From Antechinus flavipes (taxonomy: Eukaryota): a stretch of DNA of 64,000 nt. Under the pieces are notes generated by a model. The model worked only from the letters and a program-made list of their open reading frames with translations. It ran no database searches and was not told the origin of the DNA. The stretch is from NCBI RefSeq assembly GCF_016432865.1, contig NC_067398.1:724284001-724348000 (forward strand), given 5' to 3'. Of this stretch, positions 18,067 through 60,750 are shown one piece after another. Positions within the stretch are counted from its first letter, which is position 1; each line of letters opens with the position of its first letter. A program made the position numbers and the translations under genes.

Positions 18067-19520
18067 TGTGTGGCTCAGAATGGTGAGTGATCACCATTTA
18101 TGAAAAAAGCTGGAGAGATCTCTAGGAGCAAAGCAAAAGTTTATTGTACATTCTGGAGAGAAGGGAGTCTCCCTCCCTTCCAGCAAGCAATAGGAAGGAG
18201 GAGGTAGCTTTTGGGACAGGTTTGACACTTTAAATAGTCCATAACATAAACACTCCTCCCGTCCCTGACCATCATCCTCACTGGCATTCTAAACTACCCA
18301 AGAAATTGAACTTGGCCATTAAATAAATACATAGTTGCCCGTGTCTGATTGAAGTAGGGAGAAAATAAAGTCATGGGAGGAGAGCAGGGAGGGGACTTAG
18401 GTATGTCCTTGAGTCAATGCCCAAGGACCTTCAGGCCTCTATTCCAAGAGGAGGAGATGAAGCCTTACTCGATTTTCAGAACTGTCTTGAGGGATCTCAC
18501 CTCATCTCGTTCAGTCCCTTCTTCTTTGTACCCCGAGATCTCTTCAAAGTTTTCTAATATAACTTCACATTCCCTAAGTCCTCATCCCTTTCTGGCTCCT
18601 GTCTGTCTTCCTGGGGCACTGGCTCCCACCCTTGTCCTTTTAGCACCAACAATCTAACAGACCCTTCAGCTTTCCCTTCACACCTAATCATTCTGAATAA
18701 TGACTTTTGGACTCTTCTAGTTATCAACCAGATCCCGGCCATAGCTGTCTGACTGGTGATTAGCTCTACAACTGCTTGAAGTCTAATTATCCATAGTCCG
18801 GCATATTCTACCTCCTCTGGATGAGCAGATTCTTGACTATTAACAAATTTCGTTTTTGGCGCACCCAGTCTTCCAGGCAGCCACACTTAGGCCAAATAGA
18901 GCCTCCACTAACACTGTTGCTACCCCAGGCAAAACGACAATACCTGAGCAGCTTTCTCTTGCTTTTTCCTTTATATGTTTGGCACTTTGTTACAATTACT
19001 TATCTCCCGAGGGGCTATCTCCCGGCATTTTCTGATCTTTTTTCCCCCATTGTTCTCTGGGAGGGATGGCCCGGATCCATCGAATCTGGATAGAATCTAA
19101 ATTCCAAAACGCCCAACATGTCAATTGTACCCACTTAATCTCAGTCACCCAAGAAGGCCGATGCTGTCCTGCCCAGAGCACCCCTCCAGAGTCTGTAACT
19201 GGACTCAAGGGGCTCACAGGGGGCTTACCGCTTTAAATAGTCCCTAATGCAAACACCTCTCCCCCACTGACCATGGTCCTCACTGGCTGACAGTCTCACA
19301 TTCTAAACTACCCAAGAAATTGAACTGGCCAATAAGTGCATAGTTGCCCGTGTCTGACGGAAGTAGGGAGAAAATGAAGTCCAGGGTGGAGAGCAGGGAG
19401 GGGACTTAGGTATGTCCTTGAGTCAATGCGCAAGGACCTTCAGGCCTACTCTAACCCAAGGAGATGAAGCCGTGCTCGATTTCTACCACTGTCTTGAGAC
19501 ATTTCACCTCATCCTGTTCA
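18067..19520 (-). mobile_element. Internally deleted class I (gamma-like, HERV-I-type gag) provirus in G1 intron 1, 4-bp TSD AGAG
   Basis: 5' LTR U3 19520->~19232 (TGAACAGG...), then leader, gag MA (...IWPKCGCLEDWVRQK) fused to env tail (IRLQAVVELITSQT), PPT aaagaagaagggac, 3' LTR 18513->18067 (TGAACGAG...CACA). AGAG at 18063-18066 and 19521-19524. Empty site in G2 (~34864) and G3 (~60058). Confidence 0.85.
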
Positions 19521-20281
19521 AGAGGAAATGGGAGAGAAAGAAAGCGGGAGTAGAGGAAAATGAAGGGGCAAAAAAAGAGGGGAGAAGGGAAGGGACAAAG
19601 AAAGGGAAAGGGAGCAGAAAGGAAGGAGGGGAGAGGTCCCCGCAGGATCGGGGAGCCTTTGCCCCATTTCACAGACCTCACAACTGAGGCAAGAAAGGGG
19701 GGAGAAGCCAGGTAGGGGTGGGCGTCCCAAGTGCCTCACCTTGTTGCGGATGCAGGACAGCGCTGCCGCACGCGCGGAACACAGCCTTGAGTGGCCTCCA
19801 GACGGCTCCGGGATAGAATATCTACAAGGAACTTCCTTGTCCGAAGTGTCGCTCACTGGGCTGGGGGCGCACCCATTGGCTGGCTGCCGGAGGCGGAGCG
19901 TTCTCAGACCCCCGCCCTTCTCGGTGGGCTGCAGTTGAGAAAGGGGGAATTCGCCCCTTTCACACACATACACTCCTTCCCGCCGCTCCTGAAACTTTAA
20001 GCCAATCAGAGGCGCCGCCGCTGCCGGTGTCCCGCCCCTGAGATACCCCTCCGGCGTCCCTTCACTCCTAGGAGTTTTTCTGGGAAGTCCAGCTCGCTGG
20101 GTTTTGGTCAGTGGTTCTCGGAGTGGCCCGAGGCTGAGTCTCGCGGGGAGGGCGGGGAAGGGAGGGGCGGGGAGGACGGCCCCCAGGAGTGAGGGGCGGA
20201 GCCACAGGGCCACGAGCCCAGGAATTTTCTATAATGGGCAGTTAAGGGATACAAATGTGTCTGATGAGCTTCGGTAGCGCA

Positions 20282-20454
20282 GAGACAAAATAACCCTGTG
20301 ATACGTAGCCACGCCATTGATACAAAATAGCCCCGTTGACACAAAGTAGCCCCAGATCCAATGGCACCATTGATACATAATAACCCCGTGATAGATAATA
20401 TCGCTTTGATACATAATAGCCCTATTGACATGCAATAACGCCACTGACATGTTA
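20282..20454. repeat. Degenerate 18-19-bp tandem array (consensus ~GAYACATAATAGCCCCATT), ~9-10 units
   Basis: Units visible by eye; homologous arrays at 34111-34198, 51770-51895 and 59232-59330. Confidence 0.8.
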
Positions 20455-20646
20455 CAGGGGTGCTCAAACTTTTTAAATAGGGGGCCAGGTCACTGTCCCT
20501 CGGACTGTTGGAGGGCCGCACTATAGTAAAAACAAAACCTTTGTTTTGTGGACCTTTAAATAAAGAAACTTCATAGCCCTGGGTGAGGGGGTTAACCGTC
20601 CTCAGCGGCCTCATCTGGCCCGCGGGCCGTAGTTTGAGGACTCCTG
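20455..20646. mobile_element. 192-bp hAT MITE, OC1/OposCharlie1-like
   Basis: 16-bp TIRs caggggtgctcaaact / agtttgaggactcctg (14/16 match); absent from the other three paralogs; no clean 8-bp TSD; family name is from recall. Confidence 0.8.
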
Positions 20647-23172
20647 CGAGGGGGTTTGTGGTCGAGCCCCTAAAGCTCCAGCCCTGACGGGACTCACGCA
20701 CTCTCGGAAGCGCGACCCTATTCTGCTCTAATGCGCGCCGACAGCCATCAAGTCCCCGCCCCCGCCAAGGCTGATTCACGGGATTAGGGGACAGAGGCGG
20801 ACAGAGAGTGACGCGGGTGCAAGACCCGAGCTGAGCCCGGCTCCCCTCCCCTCCCCCACTTTCCCTCCCGCCTCTCCAGGAAACCCCCCGGGCGCCGCTT
20901 CTGGCTCCGGACTTCAGGTTCAGCCTTTGCCCTCGCCAGCAAACCGCGGCCTCGGGCTTTCCCACACCGACCCTCACCGCGCATCTCAAACAAGCGTCAT
21001 CTTGCAATTACAGCGCCCCCCCGGGGTAGGAGGAGAATAGGTAGGTCCTGAGGCTCTCCCCATCCTGCAGTCGCATCCTTTCTGCTGCATTTCCTTTCAT
21101 TTGTTCTTCGGGGCCACTGCAGCCTCGGCAAGGGCGGCTCTTGAAGTCAGGAAAAGCAGCCCCTGACCCGGGAGCAGAGGGAATATTTCCAAAGCGCTGT
21201 TGGATCAGGGAAGTAACAGGGAGCCACGGGAGTGCACTAAAGAGTGGGGTGACCTAATTTTTATCCCAGAAGCTGGACTTTGAAGGTTTATCAAAAACGA
21301 GATTACAAGTGTCATTGATTACTATGTCATGTGATTTTCACCTCTTTCACTGATACAACATTTTATCTCTTACCCAGTTCTATGTGTTTTTGATAACTGT
21401 TGCTTTATAAGAGAGTTTTAGGTCTGGTACTGCGAGGCCACTGTCCTTTGTGTTTGTTCCCATTAATTCCCTTAATTTTTTGCCCCTTTGTTCTTCAAAA
21501 TGAATTTTGTTATTGTTTTTTTTCCCACAAGCCACTATTTTTTTTTTCAGTTTGATTGGCTAGCCATTGAACAAATAGACCAATTTAGGGAGAATTTTTG
21601 TTTTTATTATATTAGCTCGGCCTACCCATGAACATTGATATTTTTCCAGTTGTTTAGACCTCACCTTATTTGTGGGGGAAGTGATTTTTAATTGTTTTAT
21701 ATAATTTATATAATAACTGTTCGTGACATGTAAAAATTAGAAAATTTCTGATAGAGCTTTAAGACTGTAAATTGATTGTTATCACTTAAGTTCTTTCTTA
21801 AAGACATCTCCTGAGACATCTAATTACAATTTTTTTTTATTTCCTTCATACTTCCCAAACAACCTGATCAAATTCTTGACCCCACTCTCTTATGAGGCAG
21901 CTTCACGTTTCCAGTGCCCTTATTTGGAACTCATTAACTTCTAACCACCAAAACAAAACAAGACAAAAAATCCCCAACACCTGAATTTCTCCCTATCATT
22001 CTTCTTTCAGAAAAGTTTCTCAAACATTTTTCAACATTCTTACATTTCCCCCCGTAATTTCTGTGTGTGTAAATTTAGTAGAATATAAACTAACATTACA
22101 TAAAATAAATATGAGATGTTAATAAAAAATAACAATTCTGAGATCATTTGAAGAGGCAGAAATAATTTAAAGTCTGTGTAAAGTAGATCTCCACCTAAAA
22201 CAACCTTGGCGAAGTTTAGGAAGAACCCTACTTTCCAAGTTAGTGTGGGGGGGTTAATTTTAATTTTTTATTGTTTTCTTTTTCTGATTACACATGTATA
22301 TTCTTTTTAAAATACATATTTCTCTATGAATCATATTGGCAGATAAAAATTAGAACAAAAGGGAAAAACCGTGAGAGCGAGAAAAAGCAAAAGGAAAAGA
22401 AAAAAGTGAACATGGTTTGTCTTGATGTACATTCATTTTCCAGACTTCTCTCTCTGGATGCAGATGGTGTTTTCTATCCAAGCTTTACTGGATTGCCTTG
22501 GACCATGGAACTGCTGAGAAGAACCAAGTCTTTCAAAGCTGTTCATTGCACAATCTTGCTGTTACATTGTACGATGTACCCAGTACTACTTGTTTCATTC
22601 AACCTCAGTTCGTGTAAATCTTTCCAGACCTTTCTAAAATCATTTTTCATCATTTTTTATGAACAATAATGTTCCATTACTTTCACGTATTGATTGATCC
22701 ACTCACTTTCCAATTCTTTGCCACCACAAAAAGAGCTGCACAAACCCAGGTTAGTACTTTGACCTGATTGAAGTGCAAATACTTCTGGGGCAGAGGCTAA
22801 GGAAAGGACAAAAAATAGACCCTGGAGTTAGCTTTGTAGACTTCAGTACTAACCTCAGGAACGTTAGCCAAAAGTGTGGATTGGACAGACGACCAGGGAC
22901 AGAAGGCAGGACCCTCTAGTTGAACTCCTGGTCAAAGTGAGATGACACATCTGAGCCCTGATTGTGGTTGTGGGGGAGGAGGGGTGATGTCATTCCAGGT
23001 CAGAATTACATGAATATGGTCAAAGGGAAAGCTGCTGGTGGTGGTCACTCTCTGAATCCCTGATTTGGATTGCAAGGTAGAGGGGTGAGCTGAAGCTTGC
23101 AGCCTCAAGAGACTGGAGGGAGCAATAGCATTGGCAGTGGCTCATGGTTTGTAGCTCAGGAGGCGAGAGCAG

Positions 23173-23175
<3 letters not shown>

Positions 23176-23222
<47 letters not shown>

Positions 23223-23224
23223 AC
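23176..23224. repeat. (AC)n microsatellite
   Basis: Direct inspection; absent at the paralogous position ~42185. Confidence 0.95.
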
Positions 23225-23299
23225 TGAATTAGGCCTGAGATATCCCCAACACCTTGGGTCTAAAGGCCAACTTTAATACAAAGTCCACAAATAGGAAAC

Positions 23300-23300
<1 letters not shown>

Positions 23301-23330
<30 letters not shown>
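23301..23330. repeat. (CTG)10 microsatellite
   Basis: Direct inspection; shorter (CAG)n at paralog ~42090-42107. Confidence 0.9.
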
Positions 23331-23816
23331 AAATGATGAAAAGGAATAGTAAGAATCCACCCATAGATTACTTCAATGGTATGCAGAAGATCTGGATTCA
23401 AATTCAGAAGAAAATGGTGAAATTAAAATAGTTACTTTGATGCATTCTGAGAAGATGGCAGAGCTCCAGATTCTCCATGAACAGATAGGAAATTACCACA
23501 AAATGAATATAGAGAAGCAAAGATAAAGGGGTAAAGCAGTTGCCTTCCTAGGACAAAACAAGAGGACCCCAAAAAAGACCGGAATTCCCAAGGGCTGAGA
23601 CTTAGCCAGAATGAAGGATAGACACCTCTACACTGACTCCTTCACTGGTCTCCAAACACAACAAATCAAGCCCTGGGACAGCTTTGTCAGGAGGCAGACT
23701 AAGCCTCCAGAAATTCCCTCTCAACTTTCTCCTCACTCTAAGCTTCAAGGAAATTTCCCCTCAGAAACTTTTACTGTAGAATGCACAACCTGTGAAAAGC
23801 CAGAAATCAGACCAGC

Positions 23817-24334
23817 TGTTCTGGCTCTCACAGAGGCCATGAAAAGCGACAGAAAGACAAACAGACCCCGGCGTTCTTCCAAAGTGAAGTAGTGACAAAG
23901 AATAACATAGAGAGTTTTATTATCATTGATTGACCCTTAAAAGCCACAATATGGCTAAGGAAACACAAATGAAAAAAGAAAGTAGATAAACCAGTCAGTG
24001 TATGAAGGGATTAGGGGAAAGTTGGGTTCAAGGAGAAACTTTAGCATTCCCAGACAAACTGTCTCTCCTCCTATCTGGGCAGGGGGCTTATTATTCCTGT
24101 ACATTCTGTTCTCATAACATCTCAATACTCCCGAAGCTTCCCAGCCTCTGCTGGCCAATGAGCAGACTGAAGTGGGGATTTGTGCCGGGTCAGAATGACA
24201 TGAATTACTGCAAACTGAGTGCAGATTGAGCAGGCCAGAATGCCTGGGAAAGGACAGCTTGGAAGCAAGCTATGCACAGGCTAGGCAGGTGTGATTACAT
24301 CACCAAGGCAAGTATGATTACCTGGGAGGTCACA
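23817..24334 (-). mobile_element. 3' LTR of the ERV2
   Basis: PPT aaaaaattaaagggggaatt (24335-24354) followed immediately by TGTGACC; ends ...CCAGAACA; AATAAA in the distal part. Confidence 0.75.
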
Positions 24335-24369
24335 AATTCCCCCTTTAATTTTTTTTTTTTGCAAACATA

Positions 24370-25100
24370 TCCAGAATTAATAACCAGTGTTTGCTTACGA
24401 AGCTCACTATTACTTGACAGAACCAGGGCATCAGGCAGCAGAGTGTAAATATGAACTATAGGATGGCGACAAGAGGGCCAAGGAATGAGAACACAGATTG
24501 CCAAAATGACAGGGCTGGCTGGAATAACTTATGGATTTTATCAGCAATGTTCCTGGGGTCAGATTGATCTAAAGAAGCCTGATTCATATCCTCAATGATT
24601 TTTTCAAAGATTGCCATATTAACACCCATTTTAGAAGTTGGAACACATCAAACAAATGAGCTCTTAATTGATTCCAAGAATAATTCGATGCGTTAACTTT
24701 TACAGCAGTAACACATAAAGGATGAAATCTATAATCACATCTCAGTGTAAGCCATCGTTCTAAGTAATCTACATTATCTCCTAATGTATCTCTTATTTCA
24801 ATAATAATGATAACAATGATACCTTTTCTATTCTGGGACCCGCCCCCCAGTGGAAACAAATGGGGGTGGAGTGGGCTGACACACCAGTATAATTAAAATG
24901 TAACATGACATTCCAGTGGGAGGTATTAATACGTCCATAGTTCGGGTGGCTTCTGGAACTGCCATCCGTCCTAAGGGAACAGGTGAATCTTCCCAGTTCA
25001 CCGACGAAAACCACGAGGTTGCATCCCACAATGCCCAGCGGAGTTCCATGGATCCGTGTTCCGATGATAGAAGAACGAGGAGACCCAGCAAGACCTGCAT
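24370..25100 (-). pseudogene. env: ERV2 env remnant (internally deleted)
   Basis: Hydrophobic signal-like LLGLLVLLSS, WEDSPVP motif of beta-type SU, TM-like FWQSVFSFLGPLVAIL before the PPT. Confidence 0.6.
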
Positions 25101-25299
25101 GGTGCCTTCTCAGGCACTGCTTTGTTTTCCACAGACCAGAGCGTTCGCCAGGCTCCAGTTATCTCGTCTCCAGGATCCGTAATGAGAAGAACAGAAGCCT
25201 TCTCCCATCTTTCCACTGTGGTCGGAGGTGCCACAGCCCCGTGGTCAGATCTGTCCACCTGACTTATGAAGCTAACAGTGGGGGCAGGTCTCGATGACC

Positions 25300-29790: not shown

Positions 29791-31099
29791 GGGATCTTGA
29801 GTTTCAATGACAGGGAAATTCTCAAAAAGGGAACCCCCGGACGTGAGCCTCCCCCTGGGTGGGTCTGTAAAAGTTTTTGCAGGGAGTGCTCTCTATGGCT
29901 GTTTTGACGGCAGCTGCTGATCTTGCCCTCAGGCAGAAGCGGAAGACTGTGGCTGTTGTCTCAGAAGGCTTAGGTAAGGACTATGATCCATCAAAGTCTG
30001 AACTGTAACTGTCTCGCTAAGGGAGCTTCTTTCTCAGGATCTGAGTTTCAGCAGAGAGGTGCTCTCTCCAGGATCATGTCCTTATCACTAACTGGCAGAG
30101 ATAAGGACATAGTGCTAACCTGGGAGCCATGGAGGTTCTAGAGCAAGGGAGTGACCTGGTCAGATCTATCCCTTAGAGATGTGTTTGGCAATTGTGTGGA
30201 AAATGTAGGGGAAGGAGGAGAGGCTGGATGTGGAAAGGCCAGTTAGTGGATTATCTTGGTATCTTAGGATCCTCGATTTCTGACAGGAAGGACCCCAAAA
30301 GCCATCTAGTTAAACTGCTTCCATTTCCACATGAAGACCCAGGATTCACCTGGGGTGCTGAAACAGCAGAGGTAGTGAGCATCAGAGAGGGATTTGAACC
30401 CAGAACTCCCCTTTGCCCCGCGGCATAGGACAGCTTATAAACGTCCAGGAGAGTTTGTTTCACCAGAATCACCAGGGTGGGGGTGGGGGTGGGGACAGTG
30501 AATGGAGAGCCCAGTCTCTGGGCAAGAGCTCCCTGGAGCTCCCAGGAGCAGCTTCTGTGGCCACCACAGACTTGCCCAGGAAGATGCTATGGGGGAAAAG
30601 ACGCAGCTCTGATTTGTTCCCGTGGGAGGAGAGAGAGCAAGGCCGGCCCAGGTACTGCCCTGTACCCCTCCTCACTTCCCCCCACCCTTGGCCTGGGTTC
30701 CTTCAAGGTCCACCTAAAACTGGGTGCTCCAGTAGTGGCTCTAGGAGAGCTGCTCAGCCTCAGACACTAACTAGCTGTGTGTCCCCGGGTAGTTCACTTT
30801 ACCATGTTTGCCTCAGTATTCTCATCTATAAAATGAGCTTGAGGAAGAACCGGCGCTCTATCCACCACCCTACCTGGCCCTCCTAGAATTTCCTGTGAGT
30901 ACATAAGGAGGAAAGAGCAGGGCGGGCTGCTGCACACAGAGAAACCCAGTGGCCTTCGTCCCTCATCTTCTCAAGCTGCTGGTCCTTCCTCACTCAGCTG
31001 AGGAAGAAGCAAAATGTTAGGGCTCCATAGTCCATGCTTGGGAGAAAACCACAAAATGATACCACTAGGAGGGTCTTAGGATGGGGAATGCCACAGCTA

Positions 31100-31655
31100 G
31101 AAGGGGCCTGAGAACAGGGAATGTCAGAGCTGGGGGGGTTCTTAGAACAGGGAATGTCAGAGCTGGGAGGGTTCTTAGAACAAGGAATGTCAGGTGGGAG
31201 GACTCTTAGAACAGGGAATGTCAGAGGTGGGAGGGTTCTTAGAAAAGGGAATATTAGAGGTAGGAGAGCTCTTAGAACAGGGAATGTCAGAGCTGGGAGG
31301 GTTCTTAGAACAAGGAATGTCAGGTGGGAGGTTCTTAGAACAAGGAATGTCAGGTGGGAGGACTCTTAGAAAAGGGAATATCAGAAGTAGGAGAGCTCTT
31401 AGAACAGGAATGTCAGAGGTGAGAGGGTTTTTAGAACAGGGAATGTCAGAGATGGGAGGGTTCTTAGAACAGTAAATGTCAGAAGTGGAGGGTTCTTAGA
31501 ACAGGGAATGTCAGAGGTGGAGGGTTCTTAGAACAGGGAATGCCAGGTGGGAGGTTCTTAGAACAGTACATAGCTGAGCTGGGAGAGATCTTAAAACAGG
31601 GAATGTCAGAGCTGGGAAGATTCTTAGAACAGGGAATGTCAGAGGTGGGAGGGGT
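31100..31655 (+). repeat. Minisatellite, 17 units of 30-33 bp (ttcttagaacagggaatgtcagagctgggaggg), probably derived from a MIR end
   Basis: Units counted directly; MIR core ggcaaactgaggccc follows at ~31728; 2-unit relic at ~58560-58620. Confidence 0.92.
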
Positions 31656-33504
31656 CGCATCATGTAAAAAAAAAAATAAAGGCTTAGAAATCCTGTTATA
31701 CATTTTCTAGACTGTGTTTACATATAGGCAAACTGAGGCCCAAAGGGCACAGCATTAGGAGCTAGTAGTCTTATTTAGCAGCGGACTTCCTGACCCCAGC
31801 CTCAAACACTCTCTTTGGCTGCATGGTCTGGGTTCCTTCCACTTGCTCAGACATCGGGACCTCCTCCAATGTCCACTCTCTCCAGTGTATGAGTTTCCTT
31901 TTCCTTGTGCTGGCAAAGGCCTGTGCCCTGGAATGGGCAGCTGTGGTGCCAGCCGGATGGGATGGCATTTCTGACACAAATTCCGCTCTAGGTCCTTGGG
32001 CTTAGGAGAGGAGAGGAAGGAGTGGAAGGAGGGAGTTTCCACTTTACTCCCATTTTTATTCTGAGGAAGAGGAAGCCAGAGCTTGGACTTAAGGTCCAAG
32101 TCTGCAGAAAGTTGCCTGGTGGGTGATTTTCTCAGGCCCCCTACTCAGTGGCTTTTGGGAAAAGAAGGGGTGAAGACATGGCCAGGGGGAGAGACAATGG
32201 TGGGAGAGCTCTTCAGTCACAGAAAAATTCCTGGGGCCCAGTAGTTTTGCTGGTTGGTTTCAGCCCCCAAGCTTTCAGGGAGGGTGACCATGACTTTTAA
32301 ATGTTACTTAACCCTTGGAGGAAGTATGAGCCAGGCATGAGGCTGTAGGGAGGCCATAAAGTCCCACAGGCTCTCCCCCCTAAGTCAGGATGCTTTCTCT
32401 AGAGGTCCCAGTTGGTCCAGACTTGGAGCCAGTGTGGATCATGGAGCTTGAAGTGGGAGGAATTTCAGAGGGAGACACTGAGGCCGGAAAGCTGAAGGGG
32501 GTGAAATGCCCAGAGTCACACGGGGAGTTGGAGGTGCAGGCCCTCTCTGCTGGGGCAGACAGAGCATGGAAACTAAGCCTCCCCTGGCCTCCCTGCCTCC
32601 TCTGATGGAAGCTTTCTCTCTCTTGCTTCTGGTGGGGGGTTTTATTTTTCACAGCTAAGGCATCCCTGTGGGCCTAATGATTACAAGTCACAGAGTCCCC
32701 ACACTTTACCGTTCATGGTGACTTCTCTGTCCCTTCTCTCTCCTCTCCTCAACTCCAAGGGGTCCTTCAAGGCTCAACCTGATACTAACAAGTCACATTG
32801 CAAAGCGTCTCCTTTTTTACACCCTTGACTGAGGGGATAGATCATGATCCCCATTTCTCTAATTAGTGATGCTTTAGAGCATTTTTTTATATGAGTATAG
32901 ATAACTTTGATTTTGTTTTCCAAAAACTGTCTATCAGTTAGACAATACTCACTTCTCTATATATTAGAGAAATAAGGCCTTCTTAGAAACTGAGGCAAAA
33001 TTTGGTTGCTTGGGTCAATGGTATTGTATTATCAGCTTCAGGTGTCACGTTCCCCTGCATAATGGCCTATAATCTGGAGCTTTCCCAGTCCCCAGTGGAG
33101 TGAAACCGAGCTGAGTGCTTCCTTGCTTTTTACCTCGACATTCTGAGCCCTGTGTCAAACTTCTTTAATGAGAACGGAATGCCATGGAGAGCAGCTACGC
33201 ACTCTGGGAAATTCTCCAACTTCAAAAGGCTCCAGGCCAAGGCTGAGCTGGAGGGAGAGCTGGGATGGGACTCAGGGTCTCTGAGCACCTTCGGGGGGAC
33301 GTCCTCTTCCCGAGCAGGGTGAGCAGCTCTTCCGAGGCAGGGACCCGGTCCCGAGGGCTCAGGGAAGGACCCCCGGAATCGCAAATGGGTTTTTCTTGGA
33401 TGCTCATGGTCTGCTATGACTCTCCTTCCCCCAGTGCTTGGGCCTCGGTCTCCCCCGGAGTCCTCCCTCCCCCAGCCGTGACCACAACCTCCTTAAGCCC
33501 AGTT

Positions 33505-34660
33505 CTGATTAAGTCACCCCACTCTTCAGTGCCCGCCCGTGGCTCCCTGTTACTGCCCCGATCCAACAGCGCTTTGGAAATGGTCCCTCTGCTCCCGGGT
33601 CAGGGGCTGCTTTTATGACATCAAGAGACGCACTTGATGAGAGAACAAATGGAAGGAAATGCAGCAGGAAGGATGCGACTTGGGGATAGGGAGGGCGGCA
33701 GGACCTGCCTCTTCTCTTCTCACCCCCCCCCCCCCGGGGGTGGGGGGCGGCGCTGCAATTACAAGATGATGCTTGTTTGAGATGCGGGGGGGAGGGTTGG
33801 TGTGGGAAAGCCCGAGGCCGCGGTTTGCTGGCGAGGGGAAAGGCTGAACCTGAAGTCCGGAGCCAGAAGCGGCGCCCGGGGAGTTTCCTGGAAAGGAGGG
33901 GAGGGGAGCCGGGCTCAGCTCGGGTCTTGCCCCCGCGTCACTCTCTGTCCGCCTCTGTCCCCTAATCCCGTGAATCAGCCTTGGCAAGGGCTGGGACTTG
34001 ATGGCTGTCAGCGAGCGTCAGTGCGTTAAGCGGAACAGGGCCGCGCTTCCCAGAGTGCATGAGTCCCGTCAGGCCTGGAGCTTTAGGGGCTAAACCACAA
34101 ACCCCCTAATGTACCACGTGTCAGCGGCGTTCTTACGTGTCAGCGTGGTTATTATGTGTCAATGGCATTGTTACGTATCATGGGATTATTACGTCTCTGT
34201 TACTGAAGCTCTCTAGGACACATTTGTATCCCTTAACTGCCTGTTACAGAAAATTCCGGGGCGCGTGGCCCTGTGGCTCCGCCCCCTCATTCCTGGGGGC
34301 CGTCCTCCCCTCCCCTCCCTCTTCCCCCCTCCTCTCGGGACTCAGTCTCGGCCACCCCGAGAACTGCTGGCCGAAACCACGCGAGTCAGACTTCTCGGAA
34401 AAACTGCTAGGAGTGAAAGGGAGGGCGCCGGAAGGAGAGAATGTATGTGAAAGTGGAGAATGTCCCTTCCTAAGCTGCAGACCCCTGAGAAGGGGAGTGG
34501 TCTGAGAACGCCCCGCCTCCGGAATCCAGCCAATGGATTCCACTGAGCGACAGTGCTGACACAGAGATTTTTCTAGATCTTAGATGTGGGAGCCATCGGG
34601 AGGCCATTAAAATCTGTCCCGCCAGTGTGGTGGCAGCGCTGGTCCTGGGTCTGGGACAAG
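33505..34660 (+). promoter_or_regulatory. G2 CpG-island promoter and non-coding exon 1 (donor after 34660)
   Basis: Inverted paralog of 19740-21260; CCAAT 34530-34534; GC box; caag|GTGAG. Confidence 0.75.
34111..34198. repeat. 18-19-bp promoter array, G2 copy (~5 units)
   Basis: gtaccacgtgtc/agcggcgttcttacgtgtc/agcgtggttattatgtgtc/aatggcattgttacgtatc/atgggattattacgtctc. Confidence 0.75.
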
Positions 34661-35359
34661 GTGAGATGCCTAGGATCCCTGCCCCCTCCCTGTCTTCTCC
34701 CTCTCCTTGACTTAATTGTCTGGTTTTTGAAATGGGGTAAAGGCTCCTGGATCCTTCAGGCACCGTCCCTTTTTGCTCCCCTTTTCTTTCTCCCTTACCT
34801 TCTCCCCTCTTTTTTGCCCCTTCATTTCCCCCTACTCCCGCTTTCTTCCTCTCCCATTTCCTCTTCTGCTCCCCAAATCCCTCTCTCTGATGCAAATGAC
34901 CTGGGACTCCCACATTCCCTCCCCTCTTCTTATTCTTCTTCAAGCTACCCTCTTGCCTAACACCCCCACTCCCCGGAAAGAAGCTTCAGCCTCACCTCCT
35001 TAGCCCTCCCCACATGACCAGCCATTTTCCAGGACTACTCTGGGCGAGTTAATGGGGAGAGACAAGCTAGACTTTATTTTGTTCCTCCCATTTCTGGCAT
35101 CCCAGAGTGCAGGGAGGTATATAGTAGACATTTCATCAATGCAGGTTTAGTTGATCTAAGCCCTAGAAACAGACAAACTTTCCCTCTGGGCTTTGTATGA
35201 ACAGGGAGGACTATGGGCTTTTCCAAAGCAGAGGGAGATTTGGGAGCTGGGAGGGGCAAAAGGCCAACCCTGTTCATGGCTCCTTGTTCCTTTCTAGCTC
35301 AGCCTACAGGGACCCCACAGACCACGTGCAGAGGAGAGGAAAGGGCCATCCTGGCCCCT

Positions 35360-40140
<4,781 letters not shown>

Positions 40141-50340: not shown

Positions 50341-50344
50341 AAAA

Positions 50345-51265
50345 ATTTTTGTTCTGCTAGCCTGTTGGGATCTTCTATTAAGGGTTTCATTTTCTTCTCA
50401 AAGATCCTGATTTCCGTGGCGCTCAGGGGAATATTCACATATTATACACATCCCTGAGCCCAGGGAACTTCTCTTAAGGGATAGAATTTAGGACTCGGCC
50501 TTTGGGACTCTGGAAGAGGGTAACTTTGGATATCCCTTTGAACTTGATCTTATTTTTTTCTCAAGGAAGCAAATGACCCTTTGTGGGCCTGGATGGGGTT
50601 GACTGAATTAAGTCTCTGGTGCCCTTAAGGCTCCTGGAGGGGCTGCTAGAATTAAGTCCTCTCCTTCCCTTTCAGGTCCAGAGGAGGCGGCTTCCAGAGG
50701 AAGGAGGAGCTGGAGGTAACAATGGGTCCCATGGCTAGTCCCCTCCTCTACAGCAATTTCACTTTGGTTCTTCTCAACTTTAGGGGGTCGGAATGCTATA
50801 TAGTCCGACACATCGAGCCTCCTGGGGATGAACAGATCCTTGACTATTAACAACCAAATTTGTTTTTGGCGCACCCAGTCTTCAAGGCAGCCACACACAG
50901 ACCAAATAGATCCTCCACCAACACTGTTGCTACCCCAAAAGGACAATACCTGAGCAGCTTTCTCTTGCTTTTTCCTTTATGTTTTGGCACTTTGTTCCAG
51001 TTACTTATCTCCCAAGGGACTATGTCCGGCATTTTCTGATGTTTTTTTTTTTTTCCATTGTTCTCCCGGAGGGATGGGTGGGACTGGGCCACACCCATTG
51101 AAGTTGGATGGAATCTAAATTCCAAAACGCCCAAACAAGTCAATTGTCACCACTTGACCTCAGTCACTTAAGAAGGCCGATGCTGTCCTGCCCAGAGCGC
51201 CCCTCCAGAGTCTGTAACTGGACTCAAGTGGCTCACAGAGGGCTTACCACTTGAAATAGTCCGTA
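50345..51265 (-). mobile_element. gag: Class I ERV leader + gag (MA, p12, start of CA), paralog of the G1 intron-1 provirus, truncated at an L1 tail
   Basis: NWNKVPKHKGKSKRKLLRYC, IWSVCGCLEDWVRQK, FYPLREVPW, VNIPLSATEIRIFEKKMKPLIEDP (HERV-I-type gag pattern, from recall); same TATA-to-leader junction as G1. Confidence 0.85.
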
Positions 51266-51322
51266 ATAACGGAGGAAAGGAAAGGGAGAAGCCAGGAAGG
51301 AGTGGGGTTCCAGGTACCTCAC

Positions 51323-53002: not shown

Positions 53003-53165
53003 TCTTTTTTTATTATAGCTTTTTATTTACAAGATATATGCATGGGTAATTTTTCAATATTGACCCTTGCAAAACTGTCTGTTCCAACTTTTCCTTTCCT
53101 TCCCCTCACCCTTTCCCCTAGATGGCAGGTAATGCAATATATGTTAAATATGTTCAAGTATATGT
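53003..53165 (-). mobile_element. Short L1 3' end with 10-bp TSD
   Basis: ttaacttctt at 52993-53002 and 53166-53175; empty site at ~21786-21800. Confidence 0.85.
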
Positions 53166-53851
53166 TTAACTTCTTAAAGACATCTCCTGAGGCAGCTACT
53201 TTCTAATTTTTTTTTTATTTCCTTCAAACTTCCCAAACAACCTGACCAAATTCTTGACCCCACTCTCTTCAGAGACAGCTTCACGTTCCCAGTGCCCTTA
53301 TTTGGAACTCATTAACTTCTAACCACCAAAAAACAAAACAAAAAAAATCCAAAAAACCTGAATTTCTCCCTATCATTCTTATTTCAGAAATGTTTTTCAA
53401 ACATTTTTTCAACATTCTTACATTTTTTTCCGTAATCTCTCTGTGTGTATAAATTTAGTAGAATATAAACTAACATCACATATAATAAATGAGGTGTTTA
53501 TATAAAATAACAATTCTAAGATCACTTGAAGAGGCAGAAATAATTTAAAGTCTGTGTAAAGCAGTTCTTTCCTAAAACAATCTTGGTGGAGTTTAGGAAA
53601 AGCCCTACTTTCCAGTTAGTGTATGTGTGTGGGGGGTTAATTTTAATTTTTTTATTGTTTTCTTTTTTTTTCTGATTATACATGTACATTATTTTTAAAA
53701 TACATATTTGTCTATGAATCATATTGGTAGAGAAAAAATCAGAACAAAAGGGAAAAATCATGAGAGAGAGAAAAAGCAGAAGGAAAAGTAAACCGTGAAG
53801 ATGGTTTGTCTTGATTTACATTCATTTTCCAGACTTCTCTCTCTGGATGCA

Positions 53852-54634
53852 TGTGGTGAGTTCAAAATGTTAGGTTCTTGTTCTTCTTTAAAATATTATA
53901 ATAGTTCTCTCTGGGTGCCTTCCCTGGAATCAGGATTTTGTTGGTCCCTGTTCGGGCGCCAAAATGTGGTGAGCTTTTTCTTCTCAAAACACAGCCAGGT
54001 GATAAAAGTTCAGATCTTTTATTATCTCCAATATAGCCCGGTTAGCTTAGAGGCCTATCTCTCTGCTTGGTTCCAAGAGCTCTTGCCGCTTTGTCCTTTG
54101 CTTCTGCCTCTGCTTTCTTCAGCCTCCAGAGCCAGTACTACTCTTCATATCATTCCGGTGAAATCTGTCAAAGTGCTCTCTGTCTGCACCAGAGTGCTCC
54201 TCTCCAGTCCAGCTGAATTCTCTTCTGTGACCAGCCAGCCAAGTGGAAAATATATTCTCTCTTGCCTTGCCTTGGAGAGAGGGTTAGCTTCTGGCGCAAT
54301 TCCGCTGGAATCTCGACTTGTAGCTTCTTCACTCTGAAGGACTTCTTTGACTGGCCCATTGAAGCTCTATTTATGCTTCTTCAAGAGAGGGATTGTGGGA
54401 TTTCTCCCATAGTGCTCTCTGGCCCAAAGAGCTTCAAGGGAGGTGTGAACTCATAAAGTTACAAAGTTTACTTTGTGAAACTCCCATACTTGTGAACTCC
54501 AATGAGTAAAGGTGTGAACACAAGCCTTGTATTAATTAGTCCTACTTAGTACCTTGTTTCAGGTTCTGCCCAAAGCATCTTCTTGTAAGATTAGATCAAC
54601 TCTAATTAGTTAGCAGTTTGTAAGGATTCCAACA
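53852..54634 (-). mobile_element. Collapsed provirus: LTR (54634->53965) + PBS + U5 end of a second LTR, 6-bp TSD gatgca
   Basis: TSD 53846-53851 and 54635-54640; empty site 22457-22462; both LTR ends read ...ctcaccaca. Confidence 0.88.
53944..53961 (-). other. Retroviral primer-binding site for tRNA-Lys3 (TGGCGCCCGAACAGGGAC)
   Basis: 18/18 identity to the canonical Lys3 PBS, 3 nt downstream of the LTR CA. Confidence 0.92.
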
Positions 54635-55945
54635 GATGCAGATGGTGTTTTCTATCCAAACTTCACTGGATTGCTTGGACCACTGAACTGCTGAGAAGAA
54701 CCAGGTCTTTCAAAGCTGTTCATCGCACAATCTTGCTGTTACATTGTACGATGTATTCCCGGTACTACTTGTTACACTCAACCTCAGTTTGTATAAATCT
54801 TTCCAGGCCTTTCTAAAATCATCTTGCTCATCATTTTTTAATAGACAATAACGTTCCATTACTTTTACGTATTGACGAGCATCCCCTCACTTTCCAATTC
54901 TTTGCCACCACAAAAAGAGCTGCTACAAACCCAGGTTAGTTCTTTGACCTAATTGAAGTTCTGGGGCAGAGGCTAAGGAAACTATAAAAAATAAGCCCTG
55001 GAGGCAGCTTTGTAGACTTCAGTACCACCCTCAGGAAAGTTTGCCTGAAGCCCAAAGTGTGGAATGGCAGGACCCTCTAGTTGAACTCCCGTCCAAGGTG
55101 AGATGAGCAGATCTGGGCCCTTACTGTGGCCATAGATGAGGAAGGAGGGATTTCGTGCTGGCTGGATGGGGTCCAAGAGAAAGCTGCTGGTTGTGGTCAC
55201 ACTCTGAATCCCTGATTTGGGTTGCACGGTAGAGGGATGAGCTGAAGCTTGCAGGCTCGAGAAACTAGCGGAAACACCCTGAGATGGAGTTCCAGAGCAC
55301 AATTCAGAAAGGAAGACCTTTACTCAAAGTCATGATTAAAATTTGATTACAATAATAACCTGAGAAAAATAAAATATAAGTAAAATTGAGCAAGCAAAGG
55401 AAAAAGAACCACAGATAATTATGAAGATCTGGGCTTGTATTCAGAGGAAGATAGGGGAAAAACAAACAAAAAAACCACTCGTGCTCTTCCTCTACGCTTT
55501 CGCGTAGCAGGGCTGCGGGCTGGAGCGCTAGCGTGTCCGAGGCCTCGGGCCAGACATCCAGACCATTCGCTGCCTGTGAGAGGGCTCGGGGCCGGGAGCC
55601 ATGCAGTGGGCGTCTATGGCGGACGCCTGCGCTCCTGCAGGAGCAACCACTGAGAAAGCATGCGGAAATCAGAGTCCTGGAAGCCTGCAGATGAGAAAAC
55701 GAGTAATGACGTCTCTGAGCAAAGCCGGCAGGGCGTTCCCAAGTAAAACACAGATCTGGAATACAACCAGACGATCATCTTCCACCATTTCTCCGGACCC
55801 TGGGGGAGAAAGCCTCACCCTCTGCCCAGTGCTAAATTTCATCCTAAAAACTCTTGGGCGGTCCGGGGAGCAGCCACGTGCAGCTTCTGCTTGTGCTGTT
55901 CTCTCTGGAGGAGCTATCCCTAGTAGGTGGGACATGGCTTCCTAG

Positions 55946-56062
<117 letters not shown>

Positions 56063-56619
56063 TAAAGAATTACTTTGGGTTGGAGATGCTACTGAAAAAC
56101 CCGGGCCATGGTTACCGAGGCTGATTCCTGTCCCGAAGGCGGCTCTGATTTACTCAGATGGGGAAATGTCGGATGATGAAGCCGGGCGAACGCTGTAGTT
56201 CCCTCGAGGAGTGTTGTCGCGTCTTCCCTACGATCACCTGAAGCTTTTGCTGACAAGTCTTTCCAAAAGACTAATGGATAAGAAACTAAACAAATATAGA
56301 GCTCCAGAACCCAGAAGAAGATTTGGCTTTTCCAGCCCAAGAGAACCTAAAAGTTCCACAGCATTAGTACCTTGTCTTTGTTTAATAGATATTAAATAAA
56401 GTGATTTTAATTTATCACTTTTTAAAAAAGTGGGGAGGGGCTCGGCATGAAAGGTTTGTTGCACCAGAGTAAGAAGGCAGCTCAGCCCAGCATATGCTGC
56501 CCCAGCAGAAACCGGGTTCCAGGGAAACAGGAGCATCCATGAGGGCCACCTAATCATTGGAAATAGTAGTGATTTGCAGACCTCTCAAGCCACAGGTGCC
56601 AAAGAAAATAGGTCATCAG

Positions 56620-57210
56620 GAATGCACACTCCATTGAGAGTGAAGCACAGTCAGTGCAGGTCCCACAGAGTAAAAGTTATGTTTCTACTGATGTGGATTA
56701 GCAATTATGATCTCAGACAAATTCATGGATAAAATAGATTTAATTAAAAGTCATAAACAAACTTTATTTTGATTAACAAATACCATAAACAATGAATCAA
56801 TGATACTGAACCCATGTGCACCAAATGCTATAGCACCCAAATTTTAAAAGAGAAGTTTAAATGAATTCAAGGTGAAGATAGATAATAGTTTTATAGAAAT
56901 AGAGGACTTAACCTTCCCTTCTCAGCACGAGATAAAATTTAAATTCCATCCCCCTAAAAAAAAAGATAGAAATCAAGGAAGGAAATAGAATTTTAGAGAA
57001 GTGAAATGTGATAGATATCTAGAGAGAATTGAATGAAACTAGAAAGGAACACACCTTTTTTCAGTGGTACATGGTAAAGACATAAAAATTTTGTAAAGAC
57101 AGAAATATTAAAAATATTTTCAGATTAGAATGTAATAAAATATACTGACTAATGGACAATGAAAACAGATTAAAGACTAGTTGGAGGTTAAACACCCTAA
57201 TCTTAAAGAT
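56620..57210 (+). mobile_element. Old L1 ORF2 endonuclease-region fragment
   Basis: gcaattatgatctcagacaaa, tatgcaccaaatgctatagcaccc-like and atagaggacttaaccttccc segments typical of marsupial L1 EN. Confidence 0.65.
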
Positions 57211-58809
57211 AAATTTGAAGCAGCCAAATGATACTGATTTTTACAAAGAGACATTTTCTAAAGACTTATTTTATACAGAAACAGAATAGACCAGAATAGG
57301 CCAGGCCACTTAAGTTTTGCATCTGAAAAGGTACATTCTTTGCATAATCTTTCTTCCTGCCCCCAGAGGGTGTGGGACCATACAGGTTTGTGTATGAAAA
57401 GAGTCTTTCTCTAGAATTTCTTCTAGAGAATATAAATCCATTTAAGTTTATTTACATCAGTTTATCAGGATGGGCTGTCCGGTTTTGCCCTCATCAAAGA
57501 TTATAAAACCATTTGCTAGCAATTGGGGAAGCAGTGGGCGGCTCATGTGGGGATTACTCCCCAATCCTGCTGAGCTCCATGGAGCTTTGATAATATGGGG
57601 ATCACAGAGGAACACATAAAAAATATCTGAAGGGTCATCTGGTTTTGTTTTCCTGGAAAGAAGAAGAGATGGAGCAAAGAAGGGAATTGTCTTCAGAAAG
57701 ATGAGTTCATTTGGTCCATACAATACAGAGGTATCTGGAAGCTTTCATGACTACAAGTGCTTACCCTGGAACTTTAGCAAGTCTCTGTGGCCTGAACATG
57801 GATAATATGTTTTCATTGCTTCCACATGTATAATTTATATCAATTTGTTTTCCTTCTCAATGAAGTGAAAGGAGAGGGAACTTAAAATGTTTTCAGAAAC
57901 TATTGTTAAAAAATATTTTTAGGTGTAACTAAAAATATACCAAAAATTTCACTAAAAAAATGACTTGTACAAACATTCTCAGCAGAAATGCCTGTAATTG
58001 TGTAAAGTTGGAAGCATCTTTTTGGGGGAGGAACAATAAGGGAATCTGAACAAGGTGTAGCATGTGATCAATGCAAGGGAAAGACGCTTTAAGAAGCAAA
58101 CATGAGGAATTCATAGAAATGGGAGCAGACGTGTATAAAGTGATAAAAGCTAAAGAAAATGTAAAGAAAATATAGGTAATGCCCGCTAAGTAAATAATGA
58201 CATTAAACGGCCACATTTTCAGGCATCATATATTGGACAAAGTTGCTGTTATTTTCAAATACATTGCATTTTCTCCTCGCCTTTCAGGGATGCTTTTGGA
58301 TTATTCTGTGATTCTGTGGGTCTAAGGAGCTCCCAGTAAAGAAATTTCCTCTCCTTAAGACAAATGTCCAGGGCTGAGACAGAGAGCCTTAGTGCTAAGA
58401 GTCACTATACAAAGTGCAGACTACCCTGAAATGGCCTCAGGAAGCACAGTTGCTCTTGCAGATTGTTCCTTAACTTTCCAACAAACTGTTGAAGACCACA
58501 ATATTGGCCTAAATCTCATCAGAGGAGGGATAAATGCAGGGAGACATTGAGGCCAGAGGGAGGGCCTTAGAACAGGGGGTGTCAGAGGAGGGAGGGGCCT
58601 TAGAACAAGGGATGTCAGGGCTCAGAGGACCAGGTCCCGGCTCCCTTTGTTCGTTAGACAATGAAGGGACTAGGTGCCTTGTCAAGTCCCAACGGGCCCC
58701 AAGTGGGTAATGCAGGGGCGTTACACGTTCCTGGGCACAGCAGTAGATGGGCTTTTCAGATCCCTGGAGGCCCCTGAGAGCTTGGGAGAGGGCCTTGCTC
58801 ACAGGAGTC

Positions 58810-59833
58810 ACTCCCTAAACCTTGTTGGAAGGAAAGCACGTGTCATATAAAGACGTTGGACCTGGATTCCCGAGTCTGCAGTGGGCCCGAAGCAGAAATG
58901 ATGCGGCAGGTGGATGGGGAGAGCGGCAGGAGCTGCAGGTCGAAAGGCTGAGGCTGAAGTCTGGGCAAGAAGTGGCGCCCGGGGGGTTTCCTGGAGAGGC
59001 GGGAGGGAAAGTAGAGGAGGGGAGGGGAGCTGGTCTCAGCTCGGGTCTCGCACCCGCATCACTTTCTATCCTCCTCTGTCCCCTAATCCCGTGAATCAGC
59101 CTTGGCGGGGGCTGGGACTTGATGGCTGTCAGCGAGCGTCAGTGCGCTAAGCGGAACAGGGCCGCGCTTCCGAGAGTGCGTGAGTCCCGTCAGGCCTGGA
59201 GCTTTAGGGCTGAACAACATACCCTTAATGTATGTATGTATGGCTTTATTGCGTGTCAACGGGGTTATTATGTATCAGCGAGGTTATTATGTGTCAATGG
59301 CGTTGTTACGTACACGTGGTTATTACGTCTCTGCTACTGAAGCTCTAGGACACATTTGTATCCCTTAACTGCGGGTTATAGAAAATTCCTGGGCGCGTGC
59401 CCTGTGGCCCCGCCCCCTCACTGCTGGGGGCCATTGTCACTGCCTCTCTCCTCCCCCGCTCCCCTCGCTGAGAGCTAGCTCGCTAGCTAGAGTCGCCCCA
59501 AAACTGCTAGGAGTGAAGGGATGGGGCGGCGGAGGGGCGCCTCGGGGGCGGGACAGCGGTAGCGGCGGCCTCTCTGATTGGCTCAAAGTTCCAGGCGGCG
59601 GGAAAGAGAATATGAGTGTGAAAGAGGCCAATTCCCTTTTCCTCAACTGCAGCCCAAGGAAAAATGGGTCAACGCCCCGCCTCGGGAAGCCAGCCAATGG
59701 GTGCGCCCCCACCCCAGTGAGCTACAGTGCTGACGCGGAAGTTGCTGTAGATCCTCTATCCAGAAGCTGTTCAGAGGCCATTAAAGTCTGGTTTCTGCGG
59801 GGGCGACAACGCTGGTCCTGGGTCCGGGACAAG
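58810..59833 (+). promoter_or_regulatory. G3 CpG-island promoter and non-coding exon 1 (donor after 59833)
   Basis: Paralog of the G2 promoter; CCAAT 59694-59698; GCGGAAGT 59735-59742; aag|GTAAGG; array 59232-59330. Confidence 0.75.
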
Positions 59834-60202
59834 GTAAGGGGCTTGGGACCCCCGCCCCCCCCCCCCGGTTTCTGCTCCCTCTCCTTACCTCAGTTGTCTA
59901 ATCTGTGAAATTGAGCAAGGGCTGCTGGATCCTGCGAGGACCGCCCTTTCCCTCCTTCCTTTCTGCTCCCCTTCCCTTTTTTTCTCTCTTACCGTCTCAC
60001 CTCTTTTTTTGCCCCTTCATTTCCCCCACTCCCGCTTTCTCCCTCTCCCATTTCCTCTTCCTCTTCTTTCCCCTTCCACTCCCCAAATCCCTCTCTCTGA
60101 CACAGATGATATGGGGCTCCCACATTCCTTTCTCCCTTCTTAGTCTTCACACTAGCCTCTCCCCCGACCTCTCTCCCATGGCCCGGGAAAGGAGCTTCAG
60201 CC

Positions 60203-60750
60203 TGAACGAGATGAGGTGAGATCTTTTAAGACAGTTGTGAAAATCGAGTAAGGCTTCATCTAGTTCAGAGTTTGAGCAGGCCTGAAGGACTTTAAGCATT
60301 GAGTCAAGGGCATACCCAAGTCCCCTTCCTGCTATCCTCCCATGACATCAGCATCTCCCTATTTCAAATATGGGTAACTATGTACTTATTGGTCAAGTTC
60401 AATTTCTTGGGTAGCTCCTGCGTTTAGAATGTAAGATCCTCAGCCAATAAGGATGAGGGTCAGTGGTCGGTGGGGTATATGCTTAGGGATTAAAAGTGAT
60501 GACCCTGCCCCCTATGGTGCTTCCTTCGATTCTCTGCTGGATGAGTAGGCCGCCCATTTCTTGAGAATGTATAATAAGTTTTGCTTTGCTTCTAAAGATT
60601 GCTCTGGCTTTATTTAAATTAAATGGTGACCTCCAACAGAAGTGAGTACAAGTGATAATCTTGTAAAAAATTACCCTGGCACGGGTTCTGTCAATAAAAA
60701 AAGTTATTTTAAAAAAATGGTGACCCCCCTCATCATTTCTGAACCATCCA
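60203..60750 (+). mobile_element. Solo LTR (same family as G1 provirus LTRs), 4-bp TSD AGCC, containing an 83-bp L1 tail
   Basis: TGAACGAGATGAGG...CCATCCA; AGCC at 60199-60202 and 60751-60754; empty site in G2 at 34988-34991. Confidence 0.88.
60632..60714 (+). mobile_element. 83-bp L1 3' terminus nested in the LTR, 11-bp TSD
   Basis: aaatggtgacc at 60621-60631 and 60715-60725. Confidence 0.85.

What the first reader, a model, noticed from the sequence alone, without database searches (positions are those of the whole stretch)
18067..60750. Same LTR family integrated independently ~145 bp apart at the homologous intron-1 position of two paralogs
Seen: G1 carries a two-LTR provirus with TSD AGAG at a site homologous to G3 ~60058. 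G3 is empty there but has a solo LTR of the same family with a different TSD (AGCC) at 60203. G2 is empty at both sites (34864 and 34991). Both insertions are sense to the gene, within ~400 bp downstream of the exon-1 donor. Established: gammaretroviral integrases favour TSS/CpG islands (BET tethering in MLV), and intronic sense LTRs are usually purged. Inference: an integration hotspot, or repeated retention because the LTR rewires KZFP expression (a sensor-like coupling of the repressor to its target's promoter). Caveat: G1 has deleted the AGCC-site region.
Basis: partly seen in the sequence, partly recalled or inferred. Interest (0 to 1): 0.7.

Follow-up and report, generated by a model that had tools for sequence, protein, structure and literature searches.

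The report
Retroviruses pile into KZFP first introns
In a cluster of 17 duplicated zinc-finger repressor genes, retroviral remnants of three families landed six separate times in the short first intron just behind the promoter, likely because this class of virus inserts near promoters and duplicated genes tolerate the damage.

Summary
G1 carries a heavily deleted two-LTR provirus (18067-19520, TSD AGAG). G3 carries a solo LTR (60203-60750, TSD AGCC) 145 bp further along the homologous intron. G2 is empty at both sites. The two are independent integrations: G3's LTR belongs to a younger subfamily, and one clade with the G1-site LTRs is rejected (AU p 1.7e-5). The window is part of a 17-unit KRAB-zinc-finger cluster. 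The G1-site insertion is one old event copied into 7 units, including a third copy in the window (50349-51267). Intron 1 took six independent LTR insertions from three families. Of 9 events with 4-bp target duplications, 6 lie in intron 1, against 1 of 18 with 6-bp duplications (p 0.002; 0.03 after removing seed events). Elsewhere in the genome 1 of 68 fetched copies of this family lies near a CpG island. All 9 complete carrier genes keep open KRAB-A and finger exons. Best reading: MLV-like promoter-proximal integration, kept where paralogs are redundant and the intron is 5'-untranslated, then multiplied by duplication. The family-specific 'sensor' idea gets no support, and no usable RNA was found.

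The parts
18067..19520 (-). G1 intron-1 deleted provirus of the older alpha1 subfamily; TSD AGAG (+) at 18063-18066 and 19521-19524
19231..19520 (-). G1 5' LTR, cut just after the TATA box and joined to the leader's splice-donor-like site; junction shared with B and G4
18067..18513 (-). G1 3' LTR (447 bp), preceded by a polypurine tract; AATAAA intact
60203..60750 (+). G3 intron-1 solo LTR of the younger alpha2 subfamily; TSD AGCC; LTR poly(A) hexamer reads AATAAG
60632..60714 (.). 83-bp L1-like piece inside the G3 LTR with an 11-bp target duplication; carries a sense AATAAA
34861..34864 (+). G2 empty CTCT site
34988..34991 (+). G2 empty AGCC site
60055..60058 (+). G3 empty CTCT site
50349..51267 (-).
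12036..19980 (-). KZFP gene G1: inferred exon 1 ends 19740; exon 2 17872-17786 with ATG at 17812; KRAB-A exon near 16541-16701; finger exon ORF 12036-13940 with 13 fingers
34430..39852 (+). KZFP gene G2: inferred exon 1 ends 34660; exon 2 35298-35386; finger exon ORF 38281-39852 with 10 fingers
59600..64000 (+). KZFP gene G3, 5' part: inferred exon 1 ends 59833; exon 2 61111-61201; finger exon lies beyond the window (L080, 14 fingers)
61212..61781 (+). Sense beta-family solo LTR at +10 of G3 intron 2 (TSD GCAC), shared with paralogs P and Q
35841..36367 (-). Antisense delta-family solo LTR (6-bp TSD class) in G2 intron 2

Best explanation
The G1 and G3 elements are two independent integrations of an older and a younger subfamily of one gamma-like endogenous retrovirus, among six LTR insertions in this first intron across 17 duplicated KRAB-zinc-finger units, and they likely pile up there because this class of virus is predicted to integrate beside active CpG-island promoters while redundant paralogs likely escape the purging seen elsewhere. 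Step 1 (shown): an alpha1 provirus entered the CTCT site once and was copied with the gene into units B, C, G1, G4, J, L and M, where it then decayed in different ways (solo LTR, internal deletions, 100-bp remnant). Step 2 (shown): an alpha2 element entered the AGCC site of G3 alone; its nearest relatives P and Q are empty there. Step 3 (shown, small numbers): LTRs with 4-bp target duplications cluster near exon 1, while those with 6-bp duplications are scattered. Step 4 (inferred): MLV-type promoter targeting supplies the insertions. Step 5 (inferred): they survive because intron 1 lies upstream of the start codon, the genes are redundant, and the first LTR poly(A) signal is repeatedly lost.
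For: G3's LTR nests among 19 dispersed alpha2 copies (100/100), and a clade with the cluster's alpha1 LTRs is rejected (p-AU 1.7e-5). The TSDs differ and both are canonical. Intron 1 has 6 direct events from 3 families, against 4 in intron 2 and 1 in introns 3-4 (p 0.025). 4-bp-TSD events in intron 1: 6 of 9, against 1 of 18 for 6-bp-TSD events (p 0.002; 3 of 5 against 1 of 16, p 0.028, after removing one seed event per family). Intron 1 is about 3% of the 364 kb examined. Dispersed copies rarely lie within 1.5 kb of a CpG island: 1 of 68 distinct alpha LTR loci and 0 of 22 beta loci. All 9 complete carrier genes keep open KRAB-A and finger exons, and the ATG is in exon 2. The first alpha LTR's AATAAA is lost in 5 of 5 independent lineages, against 37 of 47 intact in dispersed copies. 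The RT fragment is closest to MMLV (E 1e-18). MLV integrates within a 2-kb window of a TSS in 19% of cases (PMC4121521, passages).
Against: The family's integration preference is not shown. Fixed dispersed copies show none, so the model needs strong purging elsewhere, which I infer from other systems (PMC4911145 passages; PMC1794541 section 8). The published BET-binding motif is only partly matched in the integrase tail. The LTR library was seeded from the introns, and the check for missed families used only 419 kb of background, so intergenic 4-bp-class LTRs may be undercounted. Events are few, were classified by eye, and the window was picked after the fact. The 3' LTR poly(A) signal is intact in G1, B and J, and G3 regains an AATAAA from its L1-like piece, which weakens the read-through argument. 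Near the promoter 6 of 8 4-bp-class events are sense, against 0 of 4 6-bp-class events inside the genes (p 0.06), which leans towards active retention. Host-gene trees are mostly unresolved and do not establish the CTCT carriers as a clade. Dispersed copies were top-scoring hits, not a random draw.
Confidence: 0.6

Rival explanations
1. Sense class I LTRs were actively kept because they act as alternative promoters or enhancers that drive the whole KZFP reading frame from inside the 5'-untranslated intron.
For: The ATG lies downstream in exon 2. 6 of 8 promoter-proximal 4-bp-class events are sense (p 0.011 against an assumed 30% sense share). J keeps LTR, primer site and a donor-like site in line. 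M's 5' LTR has become CpG-rich (4.5 CpG per 100 bp against a dispersed maximum of 1.4). B, G1, J and L have deletions that shorten the path from LTR to exon 2.
Against: 6 of 8 does not differ from 50% (p 0.14). The 3' LTRs and G3's LTR have CpG levels like dispersed copies. The G1/B/G4 deletion removes the region where the 5' LTR transcript would start. L keeps only about 100 bp. Two carriers (B, G4) are gene fragments.
Confidence: 0.2
2. There is no integration preference: the cluster is under relaxed selection, all LTRs accumulate, and the excess in intron 1 is chance plus ascertainment.
For: The cluster holds about 27 LTR events by my count. ERV enrichment in KZFP clusters is known (PMC12575710 passages). 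The library was seeded from the introns, and the seed-corrected p is only 0.03.
Against: 6-bp-class LTRs in the same genes are scattered and antisense (4 of 4 oriented events). Every alpha hit in 364 kb lies in an intron 1. Two alpha events in 11.6 kb have p 0.0002-0.006 for 5,000-30,000 assumed genome copies.
Confidence: 0.12
3. Sensor coupling: these KZFPs bind this LTR family, and the LTR copy in their own intron ties their expression to the activity of their target.
For: The same family was retained twice, both times sense and near the promoter. In mice, some KZFPs target ERVs that are moderately enriched in their own cluster (PMC12575710 passage). G1, L, M and J share several fingerprints.
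Against: Two other families hit the same intron. G3's array shares no fingerprint with G1's, and carriers are no more alike than random sets (p 0.32). The alpha1 copy decayed in different ways in each paralog. The shared fingers of G1, L, M and J are explained by descent.
Confidence: 0.07
4. One insertion was displaced by local rearrangement or gene conversion, or the pattern is an assembly error.
For: Gene conversion is active here: the internal regions of B, J and M are 94-97% identical in part while their 3' LTRs are 85-87%.
Against: The subfamilies differ, the TSDs differ, the empty sites are clean, and G3's 3' junction is present in two independent DNA runs.
Confidence: 0.01

Closest known systems
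ERV build-up in young mouse KZFP clusters (PMC12575710, passages read)
   Same: ERVs inside a tandem KZFP cluster multiply by segmental duplication rather than by new integration; here one insertion became 7 copies.
   Different: This is a non-rodent genome (marsupial-like by my own inference from its 727-Mb first chromosome). The pattern is resolved to position within the gene and to ERV class. The paper's main text has no occurrence of 'promoter', 'intron', 'TSS' or 'marsupial'; its supplements were not read.
MLV BET-tethered integration at promoters and CpG islands (PMC4121521, passages read)
   Same: Gamma-like RT, 4-bp TSD, and insertions within about 1 kb of a CpG-island promoter.
   Different: These are fixed germline fossils, not fresh integrations. 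The full BET motif is not matched, and dispersed copies show no promoter bias.
KZFP clusters as permissive sites for retroviral persistence (PMC13709654, section 9 read)
   Same: Retention of insertions that would be lost elsewhere; the review calls this an open question.
   Different: The review invokes silent chromatin, whereas these insertions sit beside a CpG-island promoter in genes with open KRAB-A and finger exons.
Antisense bias of intronic ERVs (PMC1794541, outline and section 8 read)
   Same: The 6-bp-class LTRs in these genes are antisense (4 of 4 oriented events).
   Different: The 4-bp-class LTRs near the promoter are mostly sense (6 of 8) and densest where human genes show a dip.

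Membership tests
Class I (gamma-like) ERV | TG..CA LTR ends with 4-bp target duplication | tested here: met
   G1 and G3; exact 4-bp TSD read by eye in at least 11 of 19 alpha2 copies
Class I (gamma-like) ERV | Reverse transcriptase closest to gammaretroviruses | tested here: met
   139-aa natural fragment of copy B: MMLV RT E 1e-18, next group 1e-7. Pfam RVT_1 scored 16.9 bits, below its cut-off of 29.6; 5 of 6 fragments had no Pfam hit
Class I (gamma-like) ERV | tRNA-Pro-like primer binding site after the 5' LTR | tested here: inconclusive
   G-rich site after the LTR in L113, L117, L131 and J; likeness to the MLV site is recalled, not from a call
Genus Gammaretrovirus proper | Full C-terminal BET-interaction motif of integrase (PMC4121521) | tested here: not met
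   Copies B, L133 and L136 show a tryptophan followed by a basic and hydrophobic stretch at the matching place but not the full published motif. The copies are decayed, so I file the family as gamma-like only
Genus Gammaretrovirus proper | Gamma-type envelope | not tested
   No env was examined
KRAB-zinc-finger gene cluster | Tandem paralogs with a KRAB-A exon and a C2H2 array exon | tested here: met
   16 of 16 complete units examined (15 of the 17, plus divergent R) have an open KRAB-A exon and 7-24 fingers; KRAB-B exon and splicing not checked
ERV-KZFP co-duplication (mouse model) | ERV copies multiplied by duplication of the gene | tested here: met
   Same site and TSD in 7 units; the four 3' LTRs form one clade, 99/91
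ERV-KZFP co-duplication (mouse model) | ERV-mediated recombination at duplication breakpoints | not tested
   Breakpoints were not mapped
Sensor or feedback coupling | The KZFP binds the LTR family in its own intron | not testable with these tools
   Indirect test negative: no shared fingerprints across carriers
Sensor or feedback coupling | The LTR drives or modulates KZFP transcription | tested here: inconclusive
   The only RNA run offered was a contig set with 0.06 of the words and showed no exon joint among the joints listed

The most novel reading that the evidence does not exclude
The 5'-untranslated first intron of this KZFP family is a retained landing pad for class I retroviral LTRs. 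Successive viral waves insert sense promoters upstream of the start codon, lose their first poly(A) signal, and rewire individual paralogs to be expressed when and where LTRs are active. Each invasion would then diversify the expression of the repressor repertoire that fights it.
Probability: 0.15. Interest if true: 0.8.

Novelty: new variant of a known kind. Interest (0 to 1): 0.45.

Why it matters
Fixed ERVs usually hide their original integration preference because selection removes promoter-proximal copies. A tandem array of 17 near-identical promoters works as a set of natural replicates: the same 0.7-kb intron was hit six times by one ERV class and almost never by the other. If the contrast survives a full annotation, KZFP clusters record ancient promoter targeting and allow a direct test of whether they retain ERVs by tolerance or by use, which a 2026 review calls open. 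The paralogs give ready-made with-and-without-LTR pairs (G3 against P and Q) for expression tests.

Tried and rejected
RNA evidence: one metatranscriptomic contig run held 0.06 of the words and gave no exon joint among those listed, so it is no evidence either way. G3's 5' junction is reached by only 30 letters in run X4, under the tool's 31-letter bar, so it is not counted as bridged. An apparent inversion inside J's provirus was my misreading of strands and was dropped. Pseudogene explanation: rejected for the 9 complete carriers; B and G4 are fragments. Family-wide CpG-island preference among fixed copies: not seen, even with the CpG-rich M LTR as query (1 of 23, two of them already counted). 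Host-gene trees: star-like, with no starred support for a CTCT clade; segment 1 needs 3 changes. One provirus fetched for its integrase (L132) held a different nested element and was uninformative. M's 5' LTR was left out of the AU test as a long, compositionally odd branch; that grouping came from the finding's own refutation criterion, but I had already seen the tree. Paralog B was missing from two of the three host trees and G4 from two. No tRNA genes in the window. The scan's earlier notes returned nothing. Six literature searches listed no paper on class-specific first-intron LTR build-up in KZFP paralogs or on this cluster; I saw only listings for most hits and read no supplements.
Full report
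Observation. The window holds three complete KRAB-zinc-finger (KZFP) genes and a 5' fragment, G4. G1's element runs 18067-19520 on the minus strand with AGAG on both sides. G3's runs 60203-60750 with AGCC on both sides. G2 has one copy of each tetramer. The sites are 145 bp apart in G3 and lie 219 and 369 bp into intron 1. G1's element is a deleted provirus of 1454 bp. Its 5' LTR stops after the TATA box, and about 4.5 kb present in paralog B is gone. G3's 3' junction is bridged by contigs of two DNA runs, and two runs show the LTR-at-CTCT junction as a joint.

Independence. In a tree of 57 LTR copies, G3 nests with 19 dispersed copies in a short-branched subfamily (alpha2, 100/100). The cluster's other LTRs belong with the older alpha1 copies, and their four 3' LTRs form one clade (99/91). 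Forcing G3 together with eight cluster LTRs costs 88 log-likelihood units (p-AU 1.7e-5). G1's two LTRs differ at 34 of 277 aligned sites (12.3%). Three dispersed proviruses give 9.0-11.5%, and G3 against G1 gives 17-19%. I give no absolute dates. The alpha2 copies were chosen as G3's best hits, which favours nesting, but their 100/100 stem and the different TSD do not depend on that choice.

Wider context. The window lies in a cluster at C1:724.19-724.54 Mb with 17 units that have exon-1 homology. The CTCT-site insertion is shared by B, C, G1, G4, J, L and M, as proviruses of 4.4-5.9 kb, a solo LTR and remnants. So it is one old event multiplied by gene duplication, as described for mouse clusters (PMC12575710, passages). 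The AGCC-site LTR is in G3 only. P and Q, which group with G3 upstream of the promoter (99/96) and share an intron-2 LTR with it, are empty there. Host trees are otherwise star-like, and gene conversion is evident.

The hotspot is real but not family-specific. Intron 1 (about 680 bp when empty) took six direct insertions: alpha1, alpha2, three beta-family elements (units A, O, Q) and one gamma-family provirus (A). One more element is nested in C's LTR. The labels alpha to epsilon are mine. Intron 2 took four insertions and introns 3-4 took one (p 0.025 for intron 1). Sorted by target duplication, 6 of 9 4-bp-class events lie in intron 1 and 8 of 9 within 1.3 kb of exon 1, against 1 of 18 and 2 of 18 for the 6-bp class (p 0.002 and 0.0002). 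After removing one seed event per family the p values are 0.028 and 0.011. TSDs were read by eye. Several partial elements were classed by family, one intergenic beta LTR has no TSD, and one beta piece nested in O's provirus was left out. A search for missed families used 419 kb of background and is incomplete.

Element class. The RT fragment of copy B is closest to MMLV. The family makes 4-bp duplications and has a tRNA-Pro-like primer site (likeness recalled). The integrase tail only partly matches the BET motif given in PMC4121521. So it likely works like MLV but is not filed as a gammaretrovirus proper.

Retention. Among fetched dispersed copies, 1 of 68 distinct alpha LTR loci and 0 of 22 beta loci have a CpG island within 1.5 kb. 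Promoter-proximal copies are therefore rare genome-wide and common here. All 16 complete units examined keep an open KRAB-A exon and 7-24 fingers, including the 9 with an LTR in intron 1. The start codon lies in exon 2, so intron 1 is untranslated. The first alpha LTR's AATAAA is deleted or changed in 5 of 5 independent lineages, against 37 of 47 intact in dispersed copies (p 0.001). Against this, the 3' LTR signal survives in G1, B and J, G3 regains one from an L1-like piece, and sequence near the island evolves two to three times faster, which inflates such losses.

Mechanism. I commit to promoter-proximal integration by a gamma-like ERV class, retention through redundancy and 5'-untranslated position, and amplification by duplication (0.6). 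Independence, duplication and the class contrast are shown; targeting and tolerance are inferred. Exaptation of sense LTRs as promoters (0.2) is the main rival: 6 of 8 proximal 4-bp-class events are sense and M's 5' LTR has become CpG-rich, but the G3 and 3' LTRs look like dispersed copies. The sensor model (0.07) is weakened because other families hit the same intron and carriers share no special fingers. No usable RNA was found.

Novelty. ERV build-up and co-duplication in KZFP clusters are known, and retention there is discussed as open (PMC13709654 section 9). Six searches listed nothing on class-specific first-intron build-up, and the mouse paper's main text does not mention promoters or introns. 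Supplements were not read. Verdict: a real feature and a new variant of a known kind, interest 0.45.

Noticed in passing
L072:8874-9371, L089:735-1055, L092:5892-6632: Two different 6-bp-TSD LTR families sit at the same nucleotide of intron 2 with the same duplication (GAATAT): a delta LTR in units A and N, and an epsilon element in unit O. Either recurrent integration at one base or replacement by recombination.
   Followed up: partly
L092:5892-6632: The epsilon element in O is a fold-back: two inverted arms of about 200 bp (98.5% identical) from one LTR end, around SINE-like pieces.
   Followed up: no
L086:5231-5830: The 5' LTR and leader of unit M have become GC- and CpG-rich (GC 0.60, 4.5 CpG per 100 bp, branch 0.33), as if absorbed into the promoter island; best candidate for an exapted LTR or for GC-biased conversion.
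   Followed up: partly
L074:1913-7857, L081:5185-10000, L086:5231-9643: Internal regions of the B, J and M proviral copies are 94-97% identical in part while their 3' LTRs are 85-87%, suggesting gene conversion between copies in oppositely oriented paralogs.
   Followed up: partly
window 19231-19240; also B and G4: A shared deletion joins the 5' LTR TATA box almost directly to the leader's splice-donor-like site, removing R, U5, the poly(A) signal and the primer site.
   Followed up: partly
exon 1 and start of intron 1 of all units: The CpG-island segment diverges about 0.12 per branch, against 0.05 for the intron after KRAB-A.
   Followed up: no
L075 and L077: Unit C shares a 229-bp finger-exon deletion and similar fingers with D but carries the CTCT LTR that D lacks, so C looks like a mosaic of two paralogs.
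   Followed up: no
window 20456-20652: A short insertion in the G1 promoter that looks like a non-autonomous DNA transposon (family likeness recalled, not tested).
   Followed up: no
window 5600-7500: A degraded zinc-finger exon with broken frames downstream of G1, minus strand; similar remnants lie near other units.
   Followed up: no
L079:3036-3699: A sense 4-bp-TSD (GACC) LTR-like element of a further family lies 0.5-1.2 kb upstream of unit E's exon-1 donor.
   Followed up: partly
L166:1-420: The only dispersed alpha LTR found near a CpG island; no KRAB or finger motif within 1.5 kb.
   Followed up: partly
window 31065-31656: A tandem repeat of about 26-bp units.
   Followed up: no
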